Shown here in pieces: positions 5,957 to 61,555 of a stretch of 64,000 nucleotides of DNA (position 1 is the first letter of the stretch; every line of letters begins with the position of its first letter). The stretch comes from a virus. The position numbers and the translations under genes are program-made. The notes under the pieces are model-generated. The model made no database searches and had not been told where the DNA came from. It was given only the letters and a program-made list of their open reading frames with translations. Location: positions 1 through 64,000 of IMG/VR virus record IMGVR_UViG_3300042010_000040; one strand, written 5' to 3'.

Positions 5957-7819
5957 TTGAGTAACATTCGAAAAGTGATTGAACACTACACGGATTTTTC
6001 TGGAGAGAAACTCTGTTGTCCAATTCACGGAGAAAACACACCATCACTTCAGATTTATGAAGATACTAATTCATGGTATTGTTGGGGAGCGTGTGGTGAA
6101 GGTGGTGATGAAATCGCATTTGTTAAAAGTATTGATGGTGTAGACTTCCCTGAAGCTGTAAAGAAAGTCTGTGAAATTCTAAATATTACCAAAGAGGAGC
6201 TTATGGAAAGTAAAGATAAAGAAAAGGTGGTCACTAAAGTATCTTCAGAAAATGCTGAAGCTATGGATATTGAAGAAGTAAAAGAACTTATTCGTTCCAC
6301 TGGGTATGTCAGTCATGGCTACCGTGGAATTCGTGATGAGATTAACAAATTCTTTGGTCATTTGACTAAGCTTGATGAAGCCGGCAACGTACTTGCTCGA
6401 TACTACCCGGAAACTAATAACTTTGGTAAATTGACAGGTTATAAATGCCGCAATCACCCCAAGGACTTTAGTCACGGTAAGGTGGGAGCTACAGGCAATA
6501 AGAGTCAACTGAGCGGTCAAGTTAAGTTTAAATCACCTTCCAAGTATGTACTCTACGTGGGCGGTGAAGAAGATAAAGCTGCTGCATACCAGATGCTTAA
6601 GGAGAATCGAAAGGATCAGGAGTTCGATTCTATTCCTGTGGTAAGTCCAACGTCCGGTGAAGGGAGCGCAGCAAAACAAGCTGCTATGCAATATGACTGG
6701 TTCGACCAATACGACATTATTGTGATTGGGATGGATCAAGATGAGGCTGGTATTAAGGCAGCTAAAGAAATTGCAAACGTACTGCCGAAAGAAAAGATTC
6801 GAATTGCTACATGGTCGGGCAAAGATCCAAATGCTATGTTGATTGATGGCAAAGAGAAACAGTTTGTTCGTGATTTCTACAACGCTAAAGAATTCATTAG
6901 CAGCGGTATTTCCTCTTCTGGTGATGCTGAAGCTGGTTTGGCTGAGTTCCTGACAGCACCAAAGATTGGTCTGCCTCCTCAACTGAGTAAGCTTGAAGCT
7001 GCAATGCGTGGTGGTATTAAATCTACTGGTTCTGTTGTGAATATCATTGGTGACACGAGTATTGGTAAGAGCTTTTTGTCTGACACTCTGATTTACCATT
7101 GGTTGTTCAATAGTCCTCGTGTTCCAACTATTGTAAGTCTTGAACGTACAAAAGAAGAGTTGACAATTGATTTGCTGTCAATGCACCTTAAGAAAAACCT
7201 GATGTGGTTTACAGATGGTCATGATGCTGTTGATTATCTGAACCAGCCTGAAGTACAAGTATTGAAGAATAATCTTCTGTACAATGAAGCTGGTGAACCT
7301 CGATTCTTTATTATTGACGAGCGAGAAGGTGAAATTGAGCTTCTTAAGCGTCAAATGGAGAAAAGTGGTAAAGTAAATGATTCTCGCCTTATGGTGATTG
7401 ATCCACTCACTGACTTCCTCCGCTCTCTTGGTACAGAGGTTCAGGAAAACTTTATGATGTGGCAAAAGCTGCAAAAGAAGAATGGGTTTGTATTCATTAA
7501 TATTCTTCACACACGTAAGCCACCAACTGATAAAGATGGTAATGTACGTAAAGTTACGGAATATGATGCGTTAGGGTCCGGGACATTTATCCAGTCAGCA
7601 GACGTGAACATTGTGATCAATCGTGATAAGATGGCTTCAGATCCGATTGAGAAGAATACGACCTATGTTGACATGCCTAAGTGTCGTGGGGGTATCACTG
7701 GTGAGATTTGTGCGCTATACTATGACGCTGAAACTCGTCAGCAATATGATCGTGATGAATATTTTCAAACGCCAATACAGTCACCTCCCGAATACCTTTC
7801 GGAAGAGATTAGCTTTTAA
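5957..7819 (+). CDS. DNA primase-helicase (CHC2 zinc finger + TOPRIM + DnaB-like helicase)
   Basis: CPIHGE...CWGAC, GGEEDK, MDQDEAG, Walker A GDTSIGKS, VIDP, KCR. Confidence 0.92.
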   Translation: MSNIRKVIEHYTDFSGEKLCCPIHGENTPSLQIYEDTNSWYCWGACGEGGDEIAFVKSIDGVDFPEAVKKVCEILNITKEELMESKDKEKVVTKVSSENAEAMDIEEVKELIRSTGYVSHGYRGIRDEINKFFGHLTKLDEAGNVLARYYPETNNFGKLTGYKCRNHPKDFSHGKVGATGNKSQLSGQVKFKSPSKYVLYVGGEEDKAAAYQMLKENRKDQEFDSIPVVSPTSGEGSAAKQAAMQYDWFDQYDIIVIGMDQDEAGIKAAKEIANVLPKEKIRIATWSGKDPNAMLIDGKEKQFVRDFYNAKEFISSGISSSGDAEAGLAEFLTAPKIGLPPQLSKLEAAMRGGIKSTGSVVNIIGDTSIGKSFLSDTLIYHWLFNSPRVPTIVSLERTKEELTIDLLSMHLKKNLMWFTDGHDAVDYLNQPEVQVLKNNLLYNEAGEPRFFIIDEREGEIELLKRQMEKSGKVNDSRLMVIDPLTDFLRSLGTEVQENFMMWQKLQKKNGFVFINILHTRKPPTDKDGNVRKVTEYDALGSGTFIQSADVNIVINRDKMASDPIEKNTTYVDMPKCRGGITGEICALYYDAETRQQYDRDEYFQTPIQSPPEYLSEEISF

Positions 7820-7828
7820 GGAGAAATT

Positions 7829-9946
7829 GTGAGCAACGATATTGTCTATGACATTGAGGCCGATGGGTTCGTTTTTGAGTCAACGAAAGTTTGGACAATT
7901 TGTTTGACTCATGTACAGACTAAAACTAAGCTGAAAATCAATCCCTTTAAAGATCCAAATGCTAAGGAGAAATTTCTAAAATTCATCTTCTCGTTTGGTG
8001 AATGCCCTAATATTATTGGGCACTTTATTTTGGGCTACGATAATTTCGTTGTTCAGAATCTTCTTGGGATTAATTTTACAGTTGGTAAAGACACGATTGA
8101 AGGTAAACCAGTTCAGTTTATTGATACTCTGTACCTCTCTATGTTCCTAAACCCTGATCGGGTCGGGCATAGTATCGAGGCTTTTGGTGAGGAATTAGGG
8201 CTTCCAAAAATTGATTGGCGAGCAAAGGCAGTTGAGCTAGGCCTTATTGAAAGGAATGCCCCAAACGGCGCAGAATTCCAACAATGGCACCCAGAAATGG
8301 ACGTGTATTGTGACCGAGATACAGACGTAAACGTCTTGGTTTATGAATATCTGCAAAAAGAGTGGCGACAAGTATACGGAAAAGAATTTTCTATTACTGA
8401 TGCTTATAAGTGTGGGCAGAAATCTTTCTATCTGATGTCTTGTCAAGAACTTACAGGTTTCAAGTTTGATGTTGAGGGGGGTAAGAAACTAGCAATCCGT
8501 ATTGAACAGATGATGGAAGAGATTCGTGCAGAAGTTGAACCACAACTACCTCCGCGTGCTCTGAAAAAGTCTGAAGAATCTTTTTATTCGATGCCAGCTA
8601 AGCCCTATAAAAAGGACATGACATATAGTTCAGCTTGGCTTAAGTTTGTTGAGAAACACAATGGTAAAGAACTTGAGCACAGTTTTGAAGGTGATCGTTG
8701 GGAATTCTATGGGAAGGAATACTTTGTAGAACCCGGACAGATGCTTGATATTAAGTTGCCAATGGAAATGGCTAACCAAGATCAAATGAAAGATTGGTTC
8801 TTGGAATCTGGATGGCAGCCAACACTCTGGAACTTTAAGCGAGGGCCAGACAATAAGCCAATGCGTGATCCTAAGACACGCCAATTAATCCAGACAAGTC
8901 CCAAGATTCAGGAACAGGGGAAGTTGTGTAAGAACCTTGAGAGGATGGAGGGACCGCTTGTTAAATTGGTTGTGAAGTGGCTTAGTTTGCGAAACCGTCA
9001 GTCTGTGTTGAATGGCTGGTTAACAAATGATCGTCTACAAATGGATGGGCGGATTGGTGCAGGCCGTAGTGGTATTGCTGCAACTCACCGGCAAAAGCAT
9101 AAAACTTGTGTGAACGTGCCTAAAGCATCAGAGAAGGTATTGCTTGGTAAAGAATTCCGTTCATTATGGATTTCCGATGATGGGATGTTGATTGCTGCTG
9201 GGGATGCCGCTGCGTTAGAGGGACGGGTTCAGGGACATTACTGTTTTAAATATGATGGTGGTGCAACCGCTGAAGAATTGTTAAAAGGTGATGTCCACTC
9301 TAAGAATGCTTTTGCTTTCTTTGGACATGAGAAAGACTTGCAGCAATTTGATTTCCATAGTCCAGACTTCAACAAGGAACATCCGAAATTCAAGCCGTAT
9401 CGGGACAAGAGTAAAAACGGATACTACGCCTGTATGTATGGCTGTGCTGGACCTAAGCTCGCCTCTACCTTGGGTCTTCCTGTAAAGATGGGCAATGATA
9501 AGTTAGAGGCGTTCTGGGAAGCTAACCCAGCAACGAAAGCCCTGAAAGAGAACCTAGAGAGATATTGGGAAAGTGTTGGGCGTAGTAAATATCTGCCCGC
9601 TATTGATGGTCGTATGCTTTGCACACGTAAAAAGTCCGCATTGCTGAATACAATTTTCCAAAGTTGTGGCGGTATTTCCATGGACTATGCACTTTGTTTT
9701 ATGGATGCGTGGCTTGGGGGCCTGAAGTGGAAAGATCGTAAACCCCACTACGTCTACAAAGGATTTATTGTAAAGCGTGTTGCCTATATGCACGACGAAG
9801 TAGAATTTGAGTGTGAAGAACCAATTGCAGAGGAAATTTCAAGAATGATCGAACGGGCTATTGAAAAAGCAGGTTTGTATTTAAATCTAAAAGTCCCTTT
9901 GGCGGGAGAAGGTAAGGTGGGGAAAAGCTGGTGCGAAGTTCACTAA
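7829..9946 (+). CDS. DNA polymerase, family A, with 3'-5' exonuclease
   Basis: DIEADG exo I, motif A GDAAALEGR, motif B KSKNGYYACMYG, motif C MHDE. Confidence 0.95.
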   Translation: MSNDIVYDIEADGFVFESTKVWTICLTHVQTKTKLKINPFKDPNAKEKFLKFIFSFGECPNIIGHFILGYDNFVVQNLLGINFTVGKDTIEGKPVQFIDTLYLSMFLNPDRVGHSIEAFGEELGLPKIDWRAKAVELGLIERNAPNGAEFQQWHPEMDVYCDRDTDVNVLVYEYLQKEWRQVYGKEFSITDAYKCGQKSFYLMSCQELTGFKFDVEGGKKLAIRIEQMMEEIRAEVEPQLPPRALKKSEESFYSMPAKPYKKDMTYSSAWLKFVEKHNGKELEHSFEGDRWEFYGKEYFVEPGQMLDIKLPMEMANQDQMKDWFLESGWQPTLWNFKRGPDNKPMRDPKTRQLIQTSPKIQEQGKLCKNLERMEGPLVKLVVKWLSLRNRQSVLNGWLTNDRLQMDGRIGAGRSGIAATHRQKHKTCVNVPKASEKVLLGKEFRSLWISDDGMLIAAGDAAALEGRVQGHYCFKYDGGATAEELLKGDVHSKNAFAFFGHEKDLQQFDFHSPDFNKEHPKFKPYRDKSKNGYYACMYGCAGPKLASTLGLPVKMGNDKLEAFWEANPATKALKENLERYWESVGRSKYLPAIDGRMLCTRKKSALLNTIFQSCGGISMDYALCFMDAWLGGLKWKDRKPHYVYKGFIVKRVAYMHDEVEFECEEPIAEEISRMIERAIEKAGLYLNLKVPLAGEGKVGKSWCEVH

Positions 9947-10903
9947 GAGAGTTTTTCATTAATCAGATACCATTCGATAGGAAAAATGAAGGTGGTATTT
10001 ATAAAATACAAAACCTGATAAACGGAAAAGTATATGTAGGTAAGACTGTTAATTTCCGTAAAAGGTATGTATCATATAAGTCCAGTTACTTTAACAATAC
10101 ACCGAGACAGATCAATGCTTACTTCAGAAGCGCTATAGATAAAACAAAACCTGAGAACTTTAGCTTTTCTGTACTTGAGTTCTGCGATGTTGATATCATG
10201 GCTGAAAGAGAATTGTTTTGGATGGTTGAGTTATCCTCGACAGATTCAGAGAAAGGATATAACCTACGAATGGATTCCTCTACAGGAATGATTACTCACG
10301 ATTCAACACGAGAAAAGATTTCCAATCGTTTGAAAAAGGAGTATAGTGACGGAACACGTTCTGCTGAAGAGATGGGAGTTTTCTTTAGTAAAATGTGGGA
10401 AGATGAAGAGCTAAAAGACCAGATGAGGCAACAAATCTCAGAAAGTCGAAGATCTTTCTTTATCCAGAGCACGAAAGATGGTAAAGTAGTTGCTGTGTGG
10501 AACGGTGTCAATCAGGTTATGAACCACAACAAAGACTACAAGTGGCAGAACGTCTGCGGCATGCAATGGAAACAAGAAGAATTATCGTGGTTTCTTGTGG
10601 AAACGTGTTGATGAACTTGAGGAATGGATGCTAGACTATCTCGTGACGGATAACACTGATTTAGCGGGAAGAAGTGCTGATGAAAGCGTCTATCAGACTG
10701 GGAAGTATCACCGGGGTGGATTGTGGATTTACGAAGTTTCAGACGGTGAGAACACCGAAGAAATGGCTGGTAAAGACTTGCGGATATTGCTTCCTAACAT
10801 CTATGGTGTTTTCTATAGGCTCAAGACTGATACTGTGAAACACAAAGGATATACGATCACAAGACGTAAATTTGGTGAAAATATCGCTGTACAAACCCAA
10901 TAA
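9931..10903 (+). pseudogene. GIY-YIG homing endonuclease, frameshifted near 10555 (ORFs 9931-10611 and 10595-10903)
   Basis: GIYKIQN...VYVGK catalytic domain; the NUMOD1-like motif AACNGNKKNYRGFLWK continues in the +1 frame. Confidence 0.75.
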
Positions 10904-16057: not shown

Positions 16058-16975
16058 TTGAGTGAAGTAGAATGGAAACAACATGCAATTGAACTAGCTA
16101 AGACTGGAAAGAGCTGGAGGAAGATTTCTGAGTTGTTGGATAAGCCACGCTCTACTGTCTCTGATTATCTGCGTAAAGAGTTTAAATCTGTAGCAGTCAC
16201 TGCAAAGAAAGGTCCAAGAGTTCTCATTTACGACATTGAAACGGCCCCATTGCTTGGCTACTGCTGGTCGCTTTGGGATAATAATATCGGTCTAAATCAG
16301 ATTCATTCTGACTGGCATGTATTGAGCTGGGCAGCTAAATGGATGGGTGAAGAGGATGTCTATTATCAAGACCAACGAGACGTTAAGAACGTAGAAGATG
16401 ACAAACAACTTCTACAAGGTATTTGGAAACTTCTGGACGAGTGTGATTTTGTAATTACGCAGAATGGTAAAAAATTCGACCAGAAAAAACTTAATGCCCG
16501 TTTTGTTATTCATGGTATGAAGCCTCCATCTACTTATCGTCACATTGACGTTTTGCAGATTGCTAAATCTCAGTTTGGTTTTACGTCGAATAAGTTGCAG
16601 TACATGACAGAGACTTTGTGTAAGAAGTATAAGAAGTCTGGTCACGCTAAGTTCTCAGGGTTTGAGCTTTGGAGCGAGTGCCTTAACGGGAATATTGAAG
16701 CTTGGTCTGAAATGGAAAATTATAATATTCTAGATATCTTGAGCCTAGAAGAACTTTACTCCATTATCAGTCCGTGGGACGCCAAACTTCCTAACTTCTC
16801 GGTTTACGATGATGAACCAAGTGAAAATGAAGAGTGGGTAAAGGATGGTTTTGTCTATTCCAACTTGGGTAAATACGATCGTTATCGAAATACTGTTACA
16901 GGTCAACAACGACGTGGGAATATTAATCTCTTGTCGAAAGAAAAACGAGATAGTCTATTGAGGAATATTGTTTAA
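16058..16975 (+). CDS. DnaQ/RNase H-like 3'-5' exonuclease with N-terminal HTH
   Basis: YDIETAP, QNGKKFD, YNILD; HTH GKSWRKISELLDKPRSTVSDYLRK. Confidence 0.82.
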   Translation: MSEVEWKQHAIELAKTGKSWRKISELLDKPRSTVSDYLRKEFKSVAVTAKKGPRVLIYDIETAPLLGYCWSLWDNNIGLNQIHSDWHVLSWAAKWMGEEDVYYQDQRDVKNVEDDKQLLQGIWKLLDECDFVITQNGKKFDQKKLNARFVIHGMKPPSTYRHIDVLQIAKSQFGFTSNKLQYMTETLCKKYKKSGHAKFSGFELWSECLNGNIEAWSEMENYNILDILSLEELYSIISPWDAKLPNFSVYDDEPSENEEWVKDGFVYSNLGKYDRYRNTVTGQQRRGNINLLSKEKRDSLLRNIV

Positions 16976-29821: not shown

Positions 29822-30025
29822 TCAGGGAGTTCCTTCTGTGAATTCCCCGTCCAGATATACCCATCTTTCATCGGGCATTGGTTGTTCGTTAGTTATATCA
29901 ACCAAAGTGGCCACAAATTCCGGTATAAATCTAAGTTCAATAGGGATATCCGTACCATCATCATAAAGCAGTGGTTTGATAATCTCCTGCACTACGTTGT
30001 TCTCTAATCTTGCATATATCTTCAA
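29822..30025 (-). CDS. Tail fibre accessory/assembly protein
   Basis: YARLENNVVQEI...W.YLDGEF pattern, directly after the fibre gene. Confidence 0.6.
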   Translation of the reverse strand: MKIYARLENNVVQEIIKPLLYDDGTDIPIELRFIPEFVATLVDITNEQPMPDERWVYLDGEFTEGTP

Positions 30026-31071
30026 AGAGAATACTCCTCTACAATTATGATCCCTGCTGCACCAGCACCACCAGCATTGCCACCGGGGATGCTAGCGAGG
30101 GAGAGCCCACCGGCACCACCAGCACCAATTGTAGTAGAAGATGCCCCTGTCCCAGATGCCCCACCAGCAGGACCACCACCACCAAATACGGACGACCCAC
30201 CACCACCTGAGAAGGTTACAGTGGCAGCAAGGCTAAATGCTACGCTGCCAGCCGTACCACGGCTGTTTAATATAGAGGCGTTAGACCCTAGGCCACCCGC
30301 GCCTGCTGAAGTGATCGCCGGGAATGCACCAATGCCAGATCCGGCTGGACCTCCACCCCCACCGGTTGCGGTTGCAACAGCGCCAAAACTAGAACTAGCG
30401 CCATTAGAACCAGCACTGAATCCAGCCGCACCACCAGCACCACCAGCACCTACGGTAACAGCTATTGCCGAGAGTGCACCTGCAACAACACCATCACAAT
30501 ATCCACCTGCACCACCACCACCCCCTGCGGCTGATTGGCCAGCACCAGTGGCACCTGCCCCACCACCACCACCACCACCCGAGTGCAACTTATATCTAGT
30601 AAAAGCTGTCTTTGAGTGTGTAGTAAAAGTTGTTGCTCCTGTTGTCGTCGCTGCTGCATCATCTACAGAGATTCGCTGAACACCGCCCACATTGGTGTAC
30701 ACAGTTCTGCGTAACAACCTACCTTGAGTTGGAAACGCAACATCCCAGTAGGTGTGGGTTACATCTGTCACAGGGTTTTGGTTTAAGCTATCAGCTACAG
30801 CTACATAAATAGTACCGTCTGAACCTTGGACGTATGAACGCTCACCACTTGTGGTGAAATAGTAGTTATCAGTGGCTGACCAAACACTAATACCCTTCTG
30901 GAATAAGTGCAGGATTGCATTATCCTGACGGTTCTGTGCAAAGTTCTCCCACTGAAAAGGTGGGACTTCAGCAGTCCAGCCAGTCTGAATCTTGACATCA
31001 CTTGGGGCAACAATAGAACCACCAGAGGCCCATTGAAAACTAAAATCGGGTTTGTTTACTTCAGCAGCCAT
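30022..31071 (-). CDS. Tail fibre protein with Gly-rich C-terminal domain
   Basis: WASGG...IQTGW...PPFQWEN baseplate anchor, GGGGG repeats. Confidence 0.85.
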   Translation of the reverse strand: MAAEVNKPDFSFQWASGGSIVAPSDVKIQTGWTAEVPPFQWENFAQNRQDNAILHLFQKGISVWSATDNYYFTTSGERSYVQGSDGTIYVAVADSLNQNPVTDVTHTYWDVAFPTQGRLLRRTVYTNVGGVQRISVDDAAATTTGATTFTTHSKTAFTRYKLHSGGGGGGGAGATGAGQSAAGGGGGAGGYCDGVVAGALSAIAVTVGAGGAGGAAGFSAGSNGASSSFGAVATATGGGGGPAGSGIGAFPAITSAGAGGLGSNASILNSRGTAGSVAFSLAATVTFSGGGGSSVFGGGGPAGGASGTGASSTTIGAGGAGGLSLASIPGGNAGGAGAAGIIIVEEYSL

Positions 31072-58216: not shown

Positions 58217-58920
58217 ATTGTCCCTACTGAGGTGGAGAGCTTGTTTTGTTTTTATAGAAAGATTTTCTTAAAGCCTATCAACAGGACAACCTGCAATACA
58301 TTTAGAAATGATAATAGGACTTAAGAAAATCAACTCTTTAGAGGAGAGGGCTAAAGAGTTGATGAAAGAATGTCTACAGGAGAGGATAGACTTCTTTAAG
58401 ATGCTGACGCGAGAGGAAGAGGAGGAGAACGTCAGCTTTGAAGGCACCATTAATAAAGAATTTATACTTGGATGGTGTCGGGTGAAACTAATTTGAGTGG
58501 TTGGTACTGAACTCCAACTTGCTGACGGCATATTCAGCAGCATACCCGCGTTGTGCTATTTCTAGTCTTACGCTGTGTATCAGTCTACACATTCACTCAA
58601 AACTGGAGCATACCTTGAAGGAATCTAACCTTCGACAACTTAAACGTATTCTAGACTACAGAATAAGGAGCCAACATGAGGCAGCATAAAACTTTAGTTT
58701 GAATCTTTAAATTCATTACCCCGTATTAAAACCATTTGAGCATCAATAAAGACACACATTGATAAGCTTGTTTAATTCCGAGGATTTCAGAACTCGTCAG
58801 TTCATTTCTTTAAGGGGCTCTAAGGCCTACGAAAAGACATTATTATGTCTCTCGGAATTGGAGTATAAATACTTCCTTTATTTTTCCCTAAAAATTTCCG
58901 CTGGTCTTCCTTGACCCAGT
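58217..58920 (-). ncRNA. Candidate large structured ncRNA or ncRNA cluster
   Basis: Follows a consensus promoter; multibranch domains, a tRNA-like element and three hairpins with UCUCCU loops. Confidence 0.55.
58604..58685 (-). other. Degenerate tRNA-like element
   Basis: T-arm GAAGG-TTAGATT-CCTTC, 3' CCA, 7-nt-loop stem TATTCT-GTAGTCT-AGAATA; no canonical D-arm. Confidence 0.45.
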
Positions 58921-58979: not shown

Positions 58980-59126
58980 TTATTCAAAAATAGGCATCAC
59001 TTTACGGAATTGTGTGTTTCCTTCGGTGATACTTTCGAATGCATACTCAAATTTAAAGTCTGGATTGTCTTCTTCCCACAAATCTTCTTCAAGTTCTTCG
59101 TCTTCAAGATAATCTTCAATTTTCAT
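58980..59126 (-). CDS. Small very acidic protein (48 aa)
   Basis: MKIEDYLEDEELEEDLWEEDNPDF..., AGGA SD, overlaps the end of the HNH gene. Confidence 0.6.
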   Translation of the reverse strand: MKIEDYLEDEELEEDLWEEDNPDFKFEYAFESITEGNTQFRKVMPIFE

Positions 59127-59901
59127 TTTTAATCCTATTCTTTCTCTTTTTGATTGCTATCTTTTCCCAGTCATCTGGGTGTTTAGCGTTCTTTTCTAAA
59201 TTACATGTTGGACACAGCAGTTGAATATTCTCAGGCCAATTACTCCCACCTAATGCAAGCGGCATAATATGATCTGCGTGGTAACTTGTGAATATTAAGT
59301 TAGCAAGACATCCTGTACACAGGCCATTTTGTTTAACAAATAAGTTATGTATATCGTCTGCTGTAAACTCGCCTTCAGCGTTCTTTATTCTTGCACGTCT
59401 TCGGTGTGAATTAGCTTTGAGTGTGGCTTTATTTTCTAAAGTGTAGTTCTTAGCTCTTTCTTTGTAGCATTCAACGCAACCACCAGAGTCAGCATATTTC
59501 TTACTAAAATGTCCTTTTAATTCACAAGCAACATTATCGTAGTAATACTTTTCTTCTACATATATGGCTTGTGCTCTGGTTTTAGGTAAGAAAGATAATT
59601 CCATTTCAAGAAGTTTTGTTGATTCGGGGCTATCTGGATCAGCAACAGACTTTAGGAAGTCCATTGTGTCTTTAGCATATTGAATTGCTTCTTTTGCTGT
59701 TTGTTTGCGTTTGTATTTCTCTTCAGCCCTATCGGAACTCTGTTCTCTAAATAAATCGTTTTGTTCGTGAATGCATTCAACACATTTAGTGGATTCAACC
59801 ATTCTGTCTGCTATATGTCCATTCTTACATTCTTCACCAATAAAGTAATATACCTCACCAGCTTTTCTTGCGTCACTTCTACTTATAAATTCCACTACCA
59901 C
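59116..59901 (-). CDS. HNH endonuclease with Zn-binding repeats
   Basis: CTGC...HADHIMPLALGGSNWPENIQLLCPTCN; two CxxGH...CVEC-type repeats. Confidence 0.88.
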   Translation of the reverse strand: MVVEFISRSDARKAGEVYYFIGEECKNGHIADRMVESTKCVECIHEQNDLFREQSSDRAEEKYKRKQTAKEAIQYAKDTMDFLKSVADPDSPESTKLLEMELSFLPKTRAQAIYVEEKYYYDNVACELKGHFSKKYADSGGCVECYKERAKNYTLENKATLKANSHRRRARIKNAEGEFTADDIHNLFVKQNGLCTGCLANLIFTSYHADHIMPLALGGSNWPENIQLLCPTCNLEKNAKHPDDWEKIAIKKRKNRIKNEN

Positions 59902-60030: not shown

Positions 60031-61278
60031 TCAAACAGATAACTTCTCCTCAATAGCAACACCATCTTCTTTCCAATTCAGACTGATAGGCACTAAATAA
60101 TCCACACCAAACCTTTTACGAAAGCAATCACCCATAGTTTTTGATAGTAAGTCAGCATTCTTAGTCTGCACCAAAAATGAGTCATGCACTGGCAAGCATG
60201 AGATATTCTTTTCAATCATCACCTCTAGAATATCATTAGCCAAATGACTATCAGCATTTTGTAAGATACGCCCCATGCTATCTGGGCAACAGAAGAAATC
60301 ACCAAACTGTGGGTATTTATCATAGATAAGCAACATCACAGCCTTTGCACCGCCAAGGGAATACTTCTTTTTGTCTTCATCCTTAAGCAGATTAATCTCT
60401 TTACGAATAGCACCCTCTGCATCGTCGTCGTTATAGCAGTTAAACATGATGTTAACAGCGAGCTTCACGATACGACGATCTACTGTGTTTGTTTCATCTT
60501 CAAGAATACCTGAGTAAACGTCTAGTGGAAGGTACTCGACATCAATATCCTTGAGAGCAGCAGCTACACGAAAATGTAGATTGCAGAAGTCAATCTCACA
60601 AACTTCCTGACCTTCAATCTTAATATCAAGTCGTGCATCCGTATCTCGATTCTTAATTGCCAGCACATCAGCTTTATAAAATCGACCACCGTAAGCAAAC
60701 GACTCATTGAAGATACGACAGTAGAAGTTTGTGAGAGTCTTACCACTACCATCTTCAATACGAAATGATTCATTCATATGGTTGAGCTTACGAACAACCT
60801 CTTCCATTTTCTTGATATCTTGTGTGTTACGATAAGGGATTGAATTCTTGTCTTCATCTCGCAATTCAATAACCTTCACGGTGTCTTCATATGCTTTCAT
60901 AGTTTCCTCAATCAATTCTTCCATGTGCCAGACTTCAATGAACTTCTGGGTTGGAGTGATGTAGCTAACTTCCCTCTTCTCTTTAATCTTATGTGGCTTA
61001 CCCTTAACATTAACCACATAACCTTCATGTACTAAGTATTCAATACAACGAATAACCTTACGAGAGGTAATATCTTTCTTACTACTTGTCTTTGTTCCTC
61101 CTGTGTCTCTACTATACACAAGCTTACATTGTTTCTTAAGACAAGCAATCAGATTAGTGACAACCACACCTAACGTAGTAATGTCCTTATATCCATACAC
61201 CCTAATAGCATTACTTACCTCTCTACTAACTTTAATATCATAGGTTAGTAGCTTAGTATTCAAGATTACATCTCCCAT
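60031..61278 (-). CDS. Compact family A/T7-RNAP-like nucleotide polymerase-fold protein
   Basis: GGRFY, motif A EIDFCNLHFR, motif B RRIVKLAVN, motif C PVHDSF. Confidence 0.65.
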   Translation of the reverse strand: MGDVILNTKLLTYDIKVSREVSNAIRVYGYKDITTLGVVVTNLIACLKKQCKLVYSRDTGGTKTSSKKDITSRKVIRCIEYLVHEGYVVNVKGKPHKIKEKREVSYITPTQKFIEVWHMEELIEETMKAYEDTVKVIELRDEDKNSIPYRNTQDIKKMEEVVRKLNHMNESFRIEDGSGKTLTNFYCRIFNESFAYGGRFYKADVLAIKNRDTDARLDIKIEGQEVCEIDFCNLHFRVAAALKDIDVEYLPLDVYSGILEDETNTVDRRIVKLAVNIMFNCYNDDDAEGAIRKEINLLKDEDKKKYSLGGAKAVMLLIYDKYPQFGDFFCCPDSMGRILQNADSHLANDILEVMIEKNISCLPVHDSFLVQTKNADLLSKTMGDCFRKRFGVDYLVPISLNWKEDGVAIEEKLSV

Positions 61279-61419
61279 CCTCCTCTATACCTCCCTACTA
61301 TCATATAACGCAATTTTAGAGACAAAATGCTCTGTAGGCCACAGCCACAAAGGCTTGTAGCAAAAATCCCATAAATAAGTTTGCCTAAATTCGTCTGTAG
61401 GCATCAAATCTGAACAACC

Positions 61420-61449
61420 ATATTGGCACACACAGCAGCACCTTGTCAA
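61420..61449 (-). promoter_or_regulatory. Probable leftward promoter
   Basis: TTGACA-18-CAATAT. Confidence 0.5.
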
Positions 61450-61494
61450 CTCTCCCACAACATTATTTTTATTCCAAACAAATCTATTCACCGC

Positions 61495-61523
61495 TTGCAA
61501 TCCCTGAATCATGCGTGTAATAT
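61495..61523 (+). promoter_or_regulatory. Probable rightward promoter
   Basis: TTGCAA-17-TAATAT. Confidence 0.6.
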
Positions 61524-61555
61524 GACTTCATCAACTGAACGAAGGAGAGAAATAA

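What the first reader, a model, noticed from the sequence alone, without database searches (positions are those of the whole stretch)
60031..61278. A second, miniature PolA/T7-RNAP-fold polymerase in addition to the replicative PolA
Seen: 415 aa with GGRFY, motif A (EIDFCNLHFR), motif B (RRIVKLAVN) and motif C (VHDSF) in the right order with catalytic Asp residues. There is no exonuclease domain, and the N-terminal ~130 aa are basic. The phage already has a full PolA and primase. The gene heads the leftward unit leading into the HNH, the acidic peptide and the large ncRNA. Inference: a specialised enzyme (origin priming, initiator, small RNA polymerase or nucleotidyltransferase). A functional link with the ncRNA is possible but unsupported beyond adjacency.
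Basis: partly seen in the sequence, partly recalled or inferred. Interest (0 to 1): 0.7.

Follow-up and report, generated by a model that had tools for sequence, protein, structure and literature searches.

The report
Miniature TV-Pol/divPolA2 polymerase in phage
This phage gene encodes a half-size relative of DNA polymerase I and T7 RNA polymerase, joined to a probable DNA-binding winged-helix domain; it is a new member of a family already described by computation ("TV-Pol" 2008, "divPolA2" 2024), and its product has never been tested.

Summary
ORF 60031-61278 (-) encodes 415 aa with GGRFY, EIDFCNLHFR, RRIVKLAVN and VHDSF in that order. The key residues are invariant across very divergent homologues. 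An AlphaFold2 model (pLDDT 90.5) matches only family A DNA polymerases and T7-type RNA polymerases (Z up to 14.8). Residues ~18-125 look like a winged helix.

It is not new in kind. The family profile hits the published divPolA2 proteins (Barba phage E 1.9e-54; AUR84708 E 9.4e-44). My neighbourhood analysis also recovers the TV-Pol picture of 2008: bacterial homologues sit beside integrases and resolvases in islands that carry defence cargo. This scan has flagged the same family before on other DNA.

The suggested link to the neighbouring "ncRNA", HNH and acidic peptide is not supported. They are absent even from a relative whose polymerase is 98% identical.

What is conserved is position: the gene is the first large gene after a strand switch.

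The most likely role is a winged-helix-guided priming polymerase that starts DNA synthesis. This is inferred, not shown. A small RNA polymerase remains possible, because this clade has His, Asn/Leu and Asn where Pol I and CCPol carry their sugar-selecting Glu, Phe and Tyr, and it has the T7-type "HDS" motif C. No phage promoter family exists in the genome.

The parts
60031..61278 (-). Gene for the 415-aa minimal family-A-fold polymerase (TV-Pol/divPolA2 type)
   Evidence: ORF; PHROG 4756, E 1.5e-52; AF2 model pLDDT 90.5; PolA/ssRNAP structural matches; profile hits to published divPolA2 proteins
60904..61227 (-). N-terminal basic domain, residues ~18-125, winged-helix-like (probable DNA-binding/targeting domain)
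   Evidence: Folded alone (pLDDT 82). Nearly all of the top 50 PDB matches are winged-helix domains: MarR, GntR, Fur, PadR, ORC and kleisin winged helices (Z 5.4-6.8, rmsd 2.1-5.8 A over 61-99 residues). pI 9.4. The Z values are modest.
60769..60948 (-). Helices at residues ~111-170, candidate minimal two-helix thumb
   Evidence: Helices 120-133 and 153-170 in the model. Structural alignments to PolA enzymes start at model residues 124-140. The assignment as thumb is inferred.
60676..60690 (-). GGRFY (residues 197-201): beta-hairpin with invariant Gly-Arg, equivalent to the T/DxxGR motif of PolA and T7 RNAP
   Evidence: G198 and R199 are invariant in 54 divergent sequences; strands 187-191 and 198-201; defining feature 2 of TV-Pol
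60565..60609 (-). Motif A strand and helix (residues 224-238): invariant E228, catalytic D230, invariant H235 at the position of the Pol I steric-gate Glu
   Evidence: hhalign places this stretch on motif A of T7 DNA polymerase (D475). The H235 = E710 equivalence is by motif register (Asp + 5) and is inferred.
60439..60522 (-). Fingers (residues 253-280): D253, Y255, then O-helix R268-x3-K272-x3-N276-x3-N280
   Evidence: Conservation. The fingers Asp plus RxxxK is defining feature 4 of TV-Pol.
60169..60195 (-). Motif C (residues 362-370): LPVHDSFLV with invariant H365 and D366 and near-invariant S367
   Evidence: Sub-threshold Pfam RNA_pol match here. hhalign aligns it to T7 RNAP H811/D812 and to the N4 gp16 VHDCF.
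61285..61512 (-). Small upstream ORF (75 aa), co-directional; coding status uncertain, could instead be a conserved leader or promoter region
   Evidence: tblastn matches just upstream of the polymerase gene in 5 related loci; no family match; no clear ribosome-binding site on reading the sequence
61513..61555 (.). Junction between the leftward and rightward gene blocks
   Evidence: Strand blocks; sequence. The equivalent strand switch lies just upstream of the gene in about 15 related phages. There is no iteron array and no AT-rich peak.

Best explanation
The gene encodes an active, minimal nucleic-acid polymerase of the family A (Pol I / T7 RNAP) fold. It belongs to the computationally defined TV-Pol family, in the subset with an extra N-terminal domain, and to the phage group later called divPolA2. 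It has a basic winged-helix-like N-terminal domain, a short helical thumb, the Gly-Arg hairpin, a palm with two catalytic Asp residues (D230, D366) and a fingers O-helix (R268...K272). It has no nuclease domain. Most likely mechanism (inferred): the N-terminal domain brings the enzyme to a particular DNA site or structure, and the core then starts and briefly extends a new strand, acting as a primase-polymerase or initiator. The phage's own PolA and primase-helicase then take over. In bacterial relatives the same enzyme would start replication of integrase-borne islands. Shown here: the fold, the conserved catalytic residues, family membership, gene position and the island association. Inferred: catalytic activity, priming, the DNA target and the choice of sugar (dNTP or NTP).
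For: Fold: AF2 model pLDDT 90.5, pTM 0.83. Foldseek top hits are all family A DNA polymerases, probability 1.0. In VIA-align the top 21 hits are PolA or T7-type RNAPs: apPol Z 14.8, Pol nu 13.9, Klenow 13.6, yeast mtRNAP 13.6, T7 RNAP 11.7, N4 RNAPII 8.1. Catalytic residues are invariant over 54 very divergent sequences and about 130 homologues. Membership: the family profile hits Barba3A gp035 (E 1.9e-54) and AUR84708, the published divPolA2 model protein (E 9.4e-44); the pairwise comparison gives E 4e-11. All four core features listed for TV-Pol are present. Context for a replication-start role: in 59 lineages of homologues the commonest neighbours are a tyrosine integrase (20 lineages), a serine resolvase (12) and a large serine recombinase (5). 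In Rhodobacterales islands only the polymerase and the integrase are conserved, and the rest is defence cargo. This reproduces independently what Iyer et al. 2008 reported and read as priming plus synthesis for the element. The one tested enzyme placed in TV-Pol, CCPol-MP of SCCmec, is a primase-polymerase (PMC7581432). In about 15 related phages the gene keeps one position, first large gene after a strand switch, and it forms a phage-only clade of 32 rows (support 99), so it is a stable phage gene. The N-terminal domain is winged-helix-like.
Against: No member of the N-terminal-domain subset has been assayed. CCPol lacks that domain, needs a partner protein (MP) to prime, and groups near full-length PolAs, so it is a weak proxy. 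No conserved small partner gene sits next to this gene. No origin signature was found at the junction: no iterons, no AT-rich peak, and GC skew merely follows gene orientation with two minima. The phage already has a DnaG-type primase. The winged-helix match is modest (Z below 8). The family profile did not detect the TV-Pol reported in phage Ma-LMM01, so the link to TV-Pol rests on features and context, not on a direct match to a named member.
Confidence: 0.45

Rival explanations
1. It is a very small DNA-dependent RNA polymerase. The winged helix would recognise one or a few promoters and the core would transcribe a specific target, or make an RNA primer in the way T7 RNAP does at the T7 primary origin.
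For: Motif C is H-D-S as in T7 RNAP, not H-D-E as in Pol I. The position of the Pol I steric-gate Glu is an invariant His, and the positions of Pol I F762 and Y766 are Asn/Leu and Asn, whereas the dNTP-preferring CCPol keeps Glu and Phe. The only Pfam signal is RNA_pol PF00940 (E 0.11, below the cut-off). Structural matches include mtRNAP (Z 13.6), T7 RNAP (11.7) and N4 RNAPII (8.1). One Atlas neighbour cluster is auto-named 'DNA-directed RNA polymerase family protein'. The 2024 paper also left this possibility open. The gene sits early, at the head of a transcription unit.
Against: No repeated promoter-like motif exists in the window or the 92-kb genome: no 11-mer occurs in more than 2 intergenic regions exactly, or more than 4 with one mismatch. 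The Tyr that T7 RNAP uses to read the ribose (Y639) has no counterpart. Islands whose only conserved genes are an integrase and this enzyme have no obvious need for their own transcriptase. The Pfam score is well below threshold.
Confidence: 0.22
2. It is an accessory repair, gap-filling or lesion-bypass DNA polymerase with no role in initiation, as suggested for divPolA2 in 2024.
For: It co-exists with a regular replicative polymerase and lacks proofreading. It lies in a variable neighbourhood away from the replication module. The 2024 paper proposes repair. In BFVD a Barba homologue is annotated 'DNA polymerase'.
Against: This does not explain the tight pairing with integrases and resolvases as the only conserved partner in islands, the added winged-helix domain, or the fixed position at the head of a gene block beside a strand switch.
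Confidence: 0.13
3. It makes some other nucleic-acid product for host takeover or counter-defence, for example a decoy or signalling oligonucleotide, in keeping with the hypervariable early-gene region that follows it.
For: Downstream genes are small, fast-changing and unannotated, typical of early accessory regions. Bacterial homologues travel with defence cargo.
Against: The evidence is purely contextual, and no known counter-defence enzyme has this fold. The defence genes in islands vary while the polymerase and integrase stay, which points to a backbone (mobility or replication) role.
Confidence: 0.08
4. It is a remnant of a TV-Pol mobile element that inserted into the phage and serves no phage function.
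For: TV-Pol elements have been reported inside a phage genome. A mobile HNH gene lies next to it in this phage only.
Against: No recombinase gene lies within six genes of it in any member of its clade. The gene keeps the same position across relatives at 45-98% identity and forms a well-supported phage-only clade. All catalytic residues are conserved.
Confidence: 0.05

Closest known systems
divPolA2 (Yutin et al., Virol J 2024;21:200, PMC11348598)
   Same: A phage-encoded ~400-450-aa divergent PolA with an N-terminal globular domain and no exonuclease. It is encoded in addition to a regular replicative DNA polymerase, sits in a variable neighbourhood, and sometimes has paralogues. The profile of the window's family hits Barba gp035 and AUR84708.
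   Different: The window's protein lies in a separate phage-only clade, far from the long-branch Barba/AUR84708 group, at 23-26% identity. AUR84708 has Glu, Tyr and 'FDE' where this clade has His, Asn and 'HDS'. The paper found no similarity for the N-terminal domain and no thumb; here the domain looks like a winged helix and a short helical thumb seems present. This phage's regular polymerase is a PolA, not a PolB.
TV-Pol family, subset with the N-terminal domain (Iyer, Abhiman, Aravind, Biol Direct 2008;3:39, PMC2579912)
   Same: A minimal family-A core with the Arg hairpin, two palm Asp residues, and a fingers Asp plus RxxxK, without nuclease domains. Relatives are linked to resolvase, lambda-type integrase or transposase genes in restriction-modification-rich islands, in the same taxa (Loktanella, Sulfitobacter, Roseovarius).
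   Different: In this phage there is no recombinase nearby and the gene behaves as a stable phage gene. No direct match was obtained to a named TV-Pol member (Ma-LMM01). The paper predicted an all-helical N-terminal domain.
CCPol-MP primase-polymerase of SCCmec (Bebel et al., eLife 2020, PMC7581432)
   Same: A truncated family A polymerase of a mobile element, without proofreading and placed in TV-Pol. It is the only tested example and it starts DNA chains de novo.
   Different: [quoted passage not shown] This protein has His and Asn at those positions and no conserved partner gene.
Phage N4 RNAP II (gp15+gp16) and T7 RNA polymerase
   Same: Family-A-fold enzymes that start chains de novo; the 'HDS'-type motif C; N4 RNAP II is likewise stripped down. 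Structural matches: Z 8.1 (N4 gp16) and 11.7 (T7 RNAP).
   Different: The match to Pfam RNA_pol is below threshold. There is no Tyr at the T7 Y639 position and no promoter family in the genome. The enzyme is far smaller than T7 RNAP, and its N-terminal domain is not shown to be related.

Membership tests
TV-Pol (Iyer et al. 2008) | Minimal family-A polymerase core with no fused or linked nuclease domain | tested here: met
   No exonuclease or other Pfam domain. The model aligns to the polymerase domains of PolA enzymes only.
TV-Pol (Iyer et al. 2008) | [quoted passage not shown] | tested here: met
   G198 and R199 are invariant; strands 187-191 and 198-201.
TV-Pol (Iyer et al. 2008) | RRM-like palm with two conserved Asp residues | tested here: met
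   D230 and D366 are invariant in 54 divergent sequences and about 130 homologues.
TV-Pol (Iyer et al. 2008) | Fingers with a conserved Asp and an RxxxK motif | tested here: met
   D253 (51 of 54), R268 (52 of 54), K272 (54 of 54).
TV-Pol (Iyer et al. 2008) | Thumb made of two antiparallel helices | tested here: inconclusive
   Helices 120-133 and 153-170 precede the hairpin, and PolA alignments start at residues 124-140. I could not inspect coordinates to confirm the packing. The 2024 paper reports no homologous thumb in divPolA2.
TV-Pol (Iyer et al. 2008) | N-terminal-domain subset linked to resolvase, lambda-type integrase or transposase genes | tested here: met
   Met for the homologues: integrase in 20, resolvase in 12, large serine recombinase in 5 and rve transposase in 3 of 59 lineages. 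Not so in this phage's own clade.
TV-Pol (Iyer et al. 2008) | Direct sequence match to a member named in the paper | tested here: inconclusive
   The family profile found nothing in Microcystis phage Ma-LMM01. Other named members were not available as sequences.
divPolA2 (Yutin et al. 2024) | Sequence homology to barbavirus divPolA2 and to AUR84708 | tested here: met
   tblastn hits in 115 Rheinheimera phage records. Profile E 1.9e-54 for Barba3A gp035 and 9.4e-44 for AUR84708; pairwise E 4e-11.
divPolA2 (Yutin et al. 2024) | Encoded in addition to a regular replicative DNA polymerase, in a variable neighbourhood | tested here: met
   PolA at 7829-9946; the downstream genes differ among relatives.
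T7-like single-subunit RNA polymerase (Pfam PF00940) | Score above the family's curated threshold | tested here: not met
   11.8 bits against a cut-off of 22, over motif C only; 10.3 bits in the genome search.
T7-like single-subunit RNA polymerase (Pfam PF00940) | Conserved phage promoter repeated through the genome | tested here: not met
   No recurrent intergenic motif in the window or the whole genome. This does not exclude one or two target sites.
Family A DNA polymerase (Pfam PF00476) | Sequence-level match to the DNA_pol_A profile, and the ribose-excluding Glu with Phe/Tyr in the O-helix | tested here: not met
   No PF00476 hit at E up to 1. His at Asp+5, Asn/Leu at Lys+4 and Asn at Lys+8. 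The fold-level relationship is strong.
CCPol-MP type PolA-SSB primase | Adjacent conserved small OB-fold partner and helicase gene | tested here: not met
   No conserved neighbour gene in the phage clade. No helicase appears among the recurrent neighbour clusters, of which only the commonest were annotated.

The most novel reading that the evidence does not exclude
The clade with His at the steric-gate position, Asn at the O-helix Tyr position and an 'HDS' motif C is a self-sufficient, winged-helix-guided RNA-synthesising enzyme. It would be the smallest single-subunit RNA polymerase or primase of the T7/Pol I fold (catalytic core ~290 aa). Phages and integrase-borne islands would share it to start replication or to transcribe a single target.
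Probability: 0.2. Interest if true: 0.75.

Novelty: new member of a known kind. Interest (0 to 1): 0.38.

Why it matters
The family is very large: 3,142 clusters at 50% identity match at E <= 1e-3. It spans lytic phages and integrase-borne islands that carry defence systems, yet no member with the N-terminal domain has been assayed. It marks the minimal working core of the Pol I / T7 RNAP fold. A self-sufficient enzyme of about 400 aa that finds a site and starts a chain would be useful as a tool. It would also explain how many small islands and some phages start replication. This window adds three things:
- It links the phage "divPolA2" proteins to the island "TV-Pol" proteins.
- It suggests the N-terminal domain is a winged helix.
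- It shows that the sugar-selecting residues differ from those of the only tested relative, so dNTP use should not be assumed.

Tried and rejected
- **Paralogue check:** the 413-aa ORF at 313-1554 is unrelated.
- **Sequence searches against the PDB:** neither the single sequence nor the profile gave a significant hit.
- **hhalign against single sequences:** the family profile against T7 RNAP, T7 DNAP, N4 gp16 and the window's PolA gave only short, non-significant alignments. Three of the four fall on the expected motifs.
- **Pfam and NCBIfam scans of 54 members:** no family assignment.
- **Rfam and tRNA scans of the window:** nothing found.
- **T7-style promoter search:** nothing in the window or in the intergenic regions of the whole genome.
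- **Sigma-70 and terminator scans at 55-64 kb:** counts no higher than in shuffled sequence.
- **Origin signals at the junction:** no iterons, no AT-rich peak, and GC skew tracks gene orientation.
- **Co-occurrence with the HNH, acidic peptide and ncRNA region:** rejected.
- **Ma-LMM01 TV-Pol:** not detected with my profile.
- **Tools and literature:** A literature search for DUF6538 found nothing. The first IQ-TREE run did not finish, so the tree is from FastTree only.

Full report
**1. The observation**

The ORF 60031..61278 on the minus strand encodes 415 aa. A loose ordered pattern of the same kind appeared in 11 of 20,000 shuffles of the protein. The first 130 residues are basic (pI 9.4) and the remainder is acidic (pI 4.9). 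Pfam finds no exonuclease or any other domain; its only signal is a sub-threshold match of residues 344-389 to the T7-type RNA_pol family (E 0.11, 11.8 bits against a cut-off of 22).

The phage does have a DnaG/DnaB-type primase-helicase (5957-7819) and a family A DNA polymerase (7829-9946). The window lies in a complete virus record of 92,347 bp that holds one copy of the gene and no canonical T7-type RNA polymerase.

**2. It is a real, conserved protein with the Pol I / T7 RNAP fold**

- PHROGs places it in family 4756, of unknown function (E 1.5e-52).
- It has hundreds of metagenomic relatives with no Pfam domain, and 3,142 clusters at 50% identity match at E <= 1e-3.
- In 54 sequences with only 14% mean column identity, G198, R199, R216, E228, D230, H235, Y255, K272, H365 and D366 never change.
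- The AlphaFold2 model is confident (pLDDT 90.5, pTM 0.83).
- Foldseek against the PDB returns family A DNA polymerases only, at probability 1.0 but low global TM-score (about 0.33).
- An aligner that does not depend on Foldseek gives 21 top matches that are all family A DNA polymerases or T7-type RNA polymerases: apicoplast Pol Z 14.8, Pol nu 13.9, Klenow 13.6, yeast mitochondrial RNAP 13.6, T7 DNAP 12.8, T7 RNAP 11.7, N4 RNAP II 8.1.
- Profile-to-sequence alignments are not significant, but three of the four fall on the expected motifs: T7 RNAP H811/D812, T7 DNAP D475 and the N4 gp16 VHDCF. The fourth, against the window's own PolA, did not.

**3. The N-terminal domain**

In the whole-model search, residues ~18-125 matched winged-helix proteins. 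Folded alone (pLDDT 82), the domain gave a top-50 list made up almost entirely of winged-helix domains: MarR, GntR, HxlR, Fur, PadR, and the ORC and kleisin winged helices. Scores were Z 5.4-6.8 and rmsd 2.1-5.8 A over 61-99 residues. The Z values are modest, so this is a probable assignment, not a certain one. It differs from the 2024 paper, which reported no detectable similarity for this domain.

**4. Context in this phage and its relatives**

The gene is the first large gene of the leftward block 25310-61512. One small ORF (61285-61512) precedes it, and that ORF is conserved in five relatives. In about 15 related phage contigs (polymerase 45-98% identical), the gene always sits just after a strand switch and is followed by small genes that change from phage to phage.

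The HNH gene, the acidic peptide and the ~700-nt gene-poor stretch that follow it in this window are not found in any related locus, including one whose polymerase is 98% identical. Only a ~100-nt piece recurs, in two relatives. So adjacency to the "ncRNA" is not a conserved association.

I found no phage-specific promoter family in the window or in the intergenic regions of the whole genome. I found no iterons or AT-rich peak at the junction. GC skew follows gene orientation and has two minima, so it says nothing about an origin.

**5. Context in bacteria**

A pattern scan found relatives in many bacterial assemblies. I called ORFs in 136 fetched loci, clustered all neighbours, and counted co-occurrence over 59 polymerase lineages. 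The commonest neighbours are:

| Neighbour | Lineages (of 59) |
|---|---|
| Tyrosine integrase with a DUF6538 N-terminus | 20 |
| Small serine resolvase | 12 |
| Large serine recombinase | 5 |
| rve transposase | 3 |

Pfam confirmed these identities. In Rhodobacterales the polymerase gene lies convergent with the integrase at one end of an island. The rest of the island varies and carries defence genes: type I HsdR, a type ISP enzyme, DndB, and a large protein with weak NACHT/AAA ATPase matches.

A FastTree tree puts the window's protein in a phage-only clade of 32 rows (support 99) with no recombinase neighbour. The island versions form other clades, and the Barba/AUR84708 proteins form a distant long-branch group.

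**6. What is already known**

Notes from earlier runs of this scan pointed me to two papers, which I read and tested against my data.

- **Iyer, Abhiman and Aravind 2008 (PMC2579912)** defined the TV-Pol family as a minimal family A core. It has a two-helix thumb, a hairpin with an invariant Arg, two palm Asp residues, and a fingers Asp plus RxxxK. A subset has an extra N-terminal domain and is linked to resolvase, integrase or transposase genes in restriction-modification hot spots. They predicted primase plus polymerase activity. Every core feature I could test is present, and my neighbourhood result reproduces theirs. My profile did not detect the member they reported in phage Ma-LMM01.
- **Yutin et al. 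2024 (PMC11348598)** named divPolA2 in barbaviruses and other phages. They proposed a repair DNA polymerase or an RNA polymerase. My profile hits Barba3A gp035 (E 1.9e-54) and AUR84708, their model protein (E 9.4e-44).
- **CCPol-MP of SCCmec** is the only tested enzyme placed in TV-Pol. It is a dNTP-using primase-polymerase. However, it lacks the N-terminal domain, needs a partner protein, and sits near full-length PolAs.

**7. Sugar selectivity is open**

By motif register, the position of the Pol I steric-gate Glu (motif A Asp + 5) is His in nearly all of the ~130 homologues. The positions of Pol I F762 and Y766 are Asn/Leu and Asn, and motif C is H-D-S as in T7 RNAP. CCPol keeps the Glu and the Phe. 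AUR84708 is an outlier with Glu, Tyr and F-D-E, and the Barba protein has Trp at the gate position. These equivalences rest on spacing, not on superposed coordinates, which I could not inspect.

**8. Verdict**

- **Observation:** confirmed.
- **Fold interpretation:** supported.
- **Link to the ncRNA:** not supported.
- **Novelty:** a new member of a known but biochemically untested kind, which this scan has met before on other DNA.
- **Best explanation (confidence about 0.45 for the mechanism, much higher for family membership):** a winged-helix-guided priming polymerase that starts DNA synthesis.
- **Main rival:** a very small RNA polymerase (about 0.2).

Noticed in passing
window 59116-59901 (-): The HNH endonuclease gene (Pfam HNH, E 1.5e-10) just downstream of the polymerase gene is absent from all related loci, including one whose polymerase is 98% identical. 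It is probably a recent homing-endonuclease insertion.
   Followed up: partly
window 58326-58429; L091:2389-2491; L097:10417-10483: A ~100-nt piece of the gene-poor stretch is conserved in two related phages, at a similar distance downstream of the polymerase gene and in the same orientation. Between the window and L091, one hairpin stem changes on both sides (GCTGACG/CGTCAGC versus GCTAGCG/CGCTAGC), and the CU-rich loops are kept.
   Followed up: partly
L093 and L096 (one 88.8-kb viral contig); L009 and L010 (one 83.9-kb contig); L137; L068/L129: Some related phages and elements carry two copies of the mini-polymerase gene, as the 2024 paper also noted. This window's genome has one.
   Followed up: partly
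L024, L030, L041, L019 (Rhodobacterales chromosomes): Islands whose only conserved genes are the mini-polymerase and a convergent DUF6538-type tyrosine integrase carry varied defence cargo: type I HsdR, a type ISP enzyme, DndB, and a large protein with weak NACHT/AAA matches. I found no paper that mentions DUF6538.
   Followed up: partly
L148:2970-4262 (AUR84708, Vibrio phage 1.063.O): The protein used as the published divPolA2 structural model is atypical for the wider family: it has Val, Glu, Tyr and 'FDE' where nearly all other members have Glu, His, Asn and 'HDS'.
   Followed up: yes
window 9931-10611 (+): The ORF just after the replicative PolA gene has a GIY-YIG nuclease domain plus a weak CotH-kinase-like match; it is possibly another homing endonuclease.
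   Followed up: no
window 16058-16975 (+): A 305-aa protein combining an N-terminal HTH (HTH_23) with an RNase_H_2 superfamily domain lies in the replication block.
   Followed up: no
window 30022-31071 (-): Repeat families of CCA/CCACC-rich units occupy 30060-30582, so the ORF here would encode a Gly-rich repetitive (collagen-like?) protein within the structural module.
   Followed up: no
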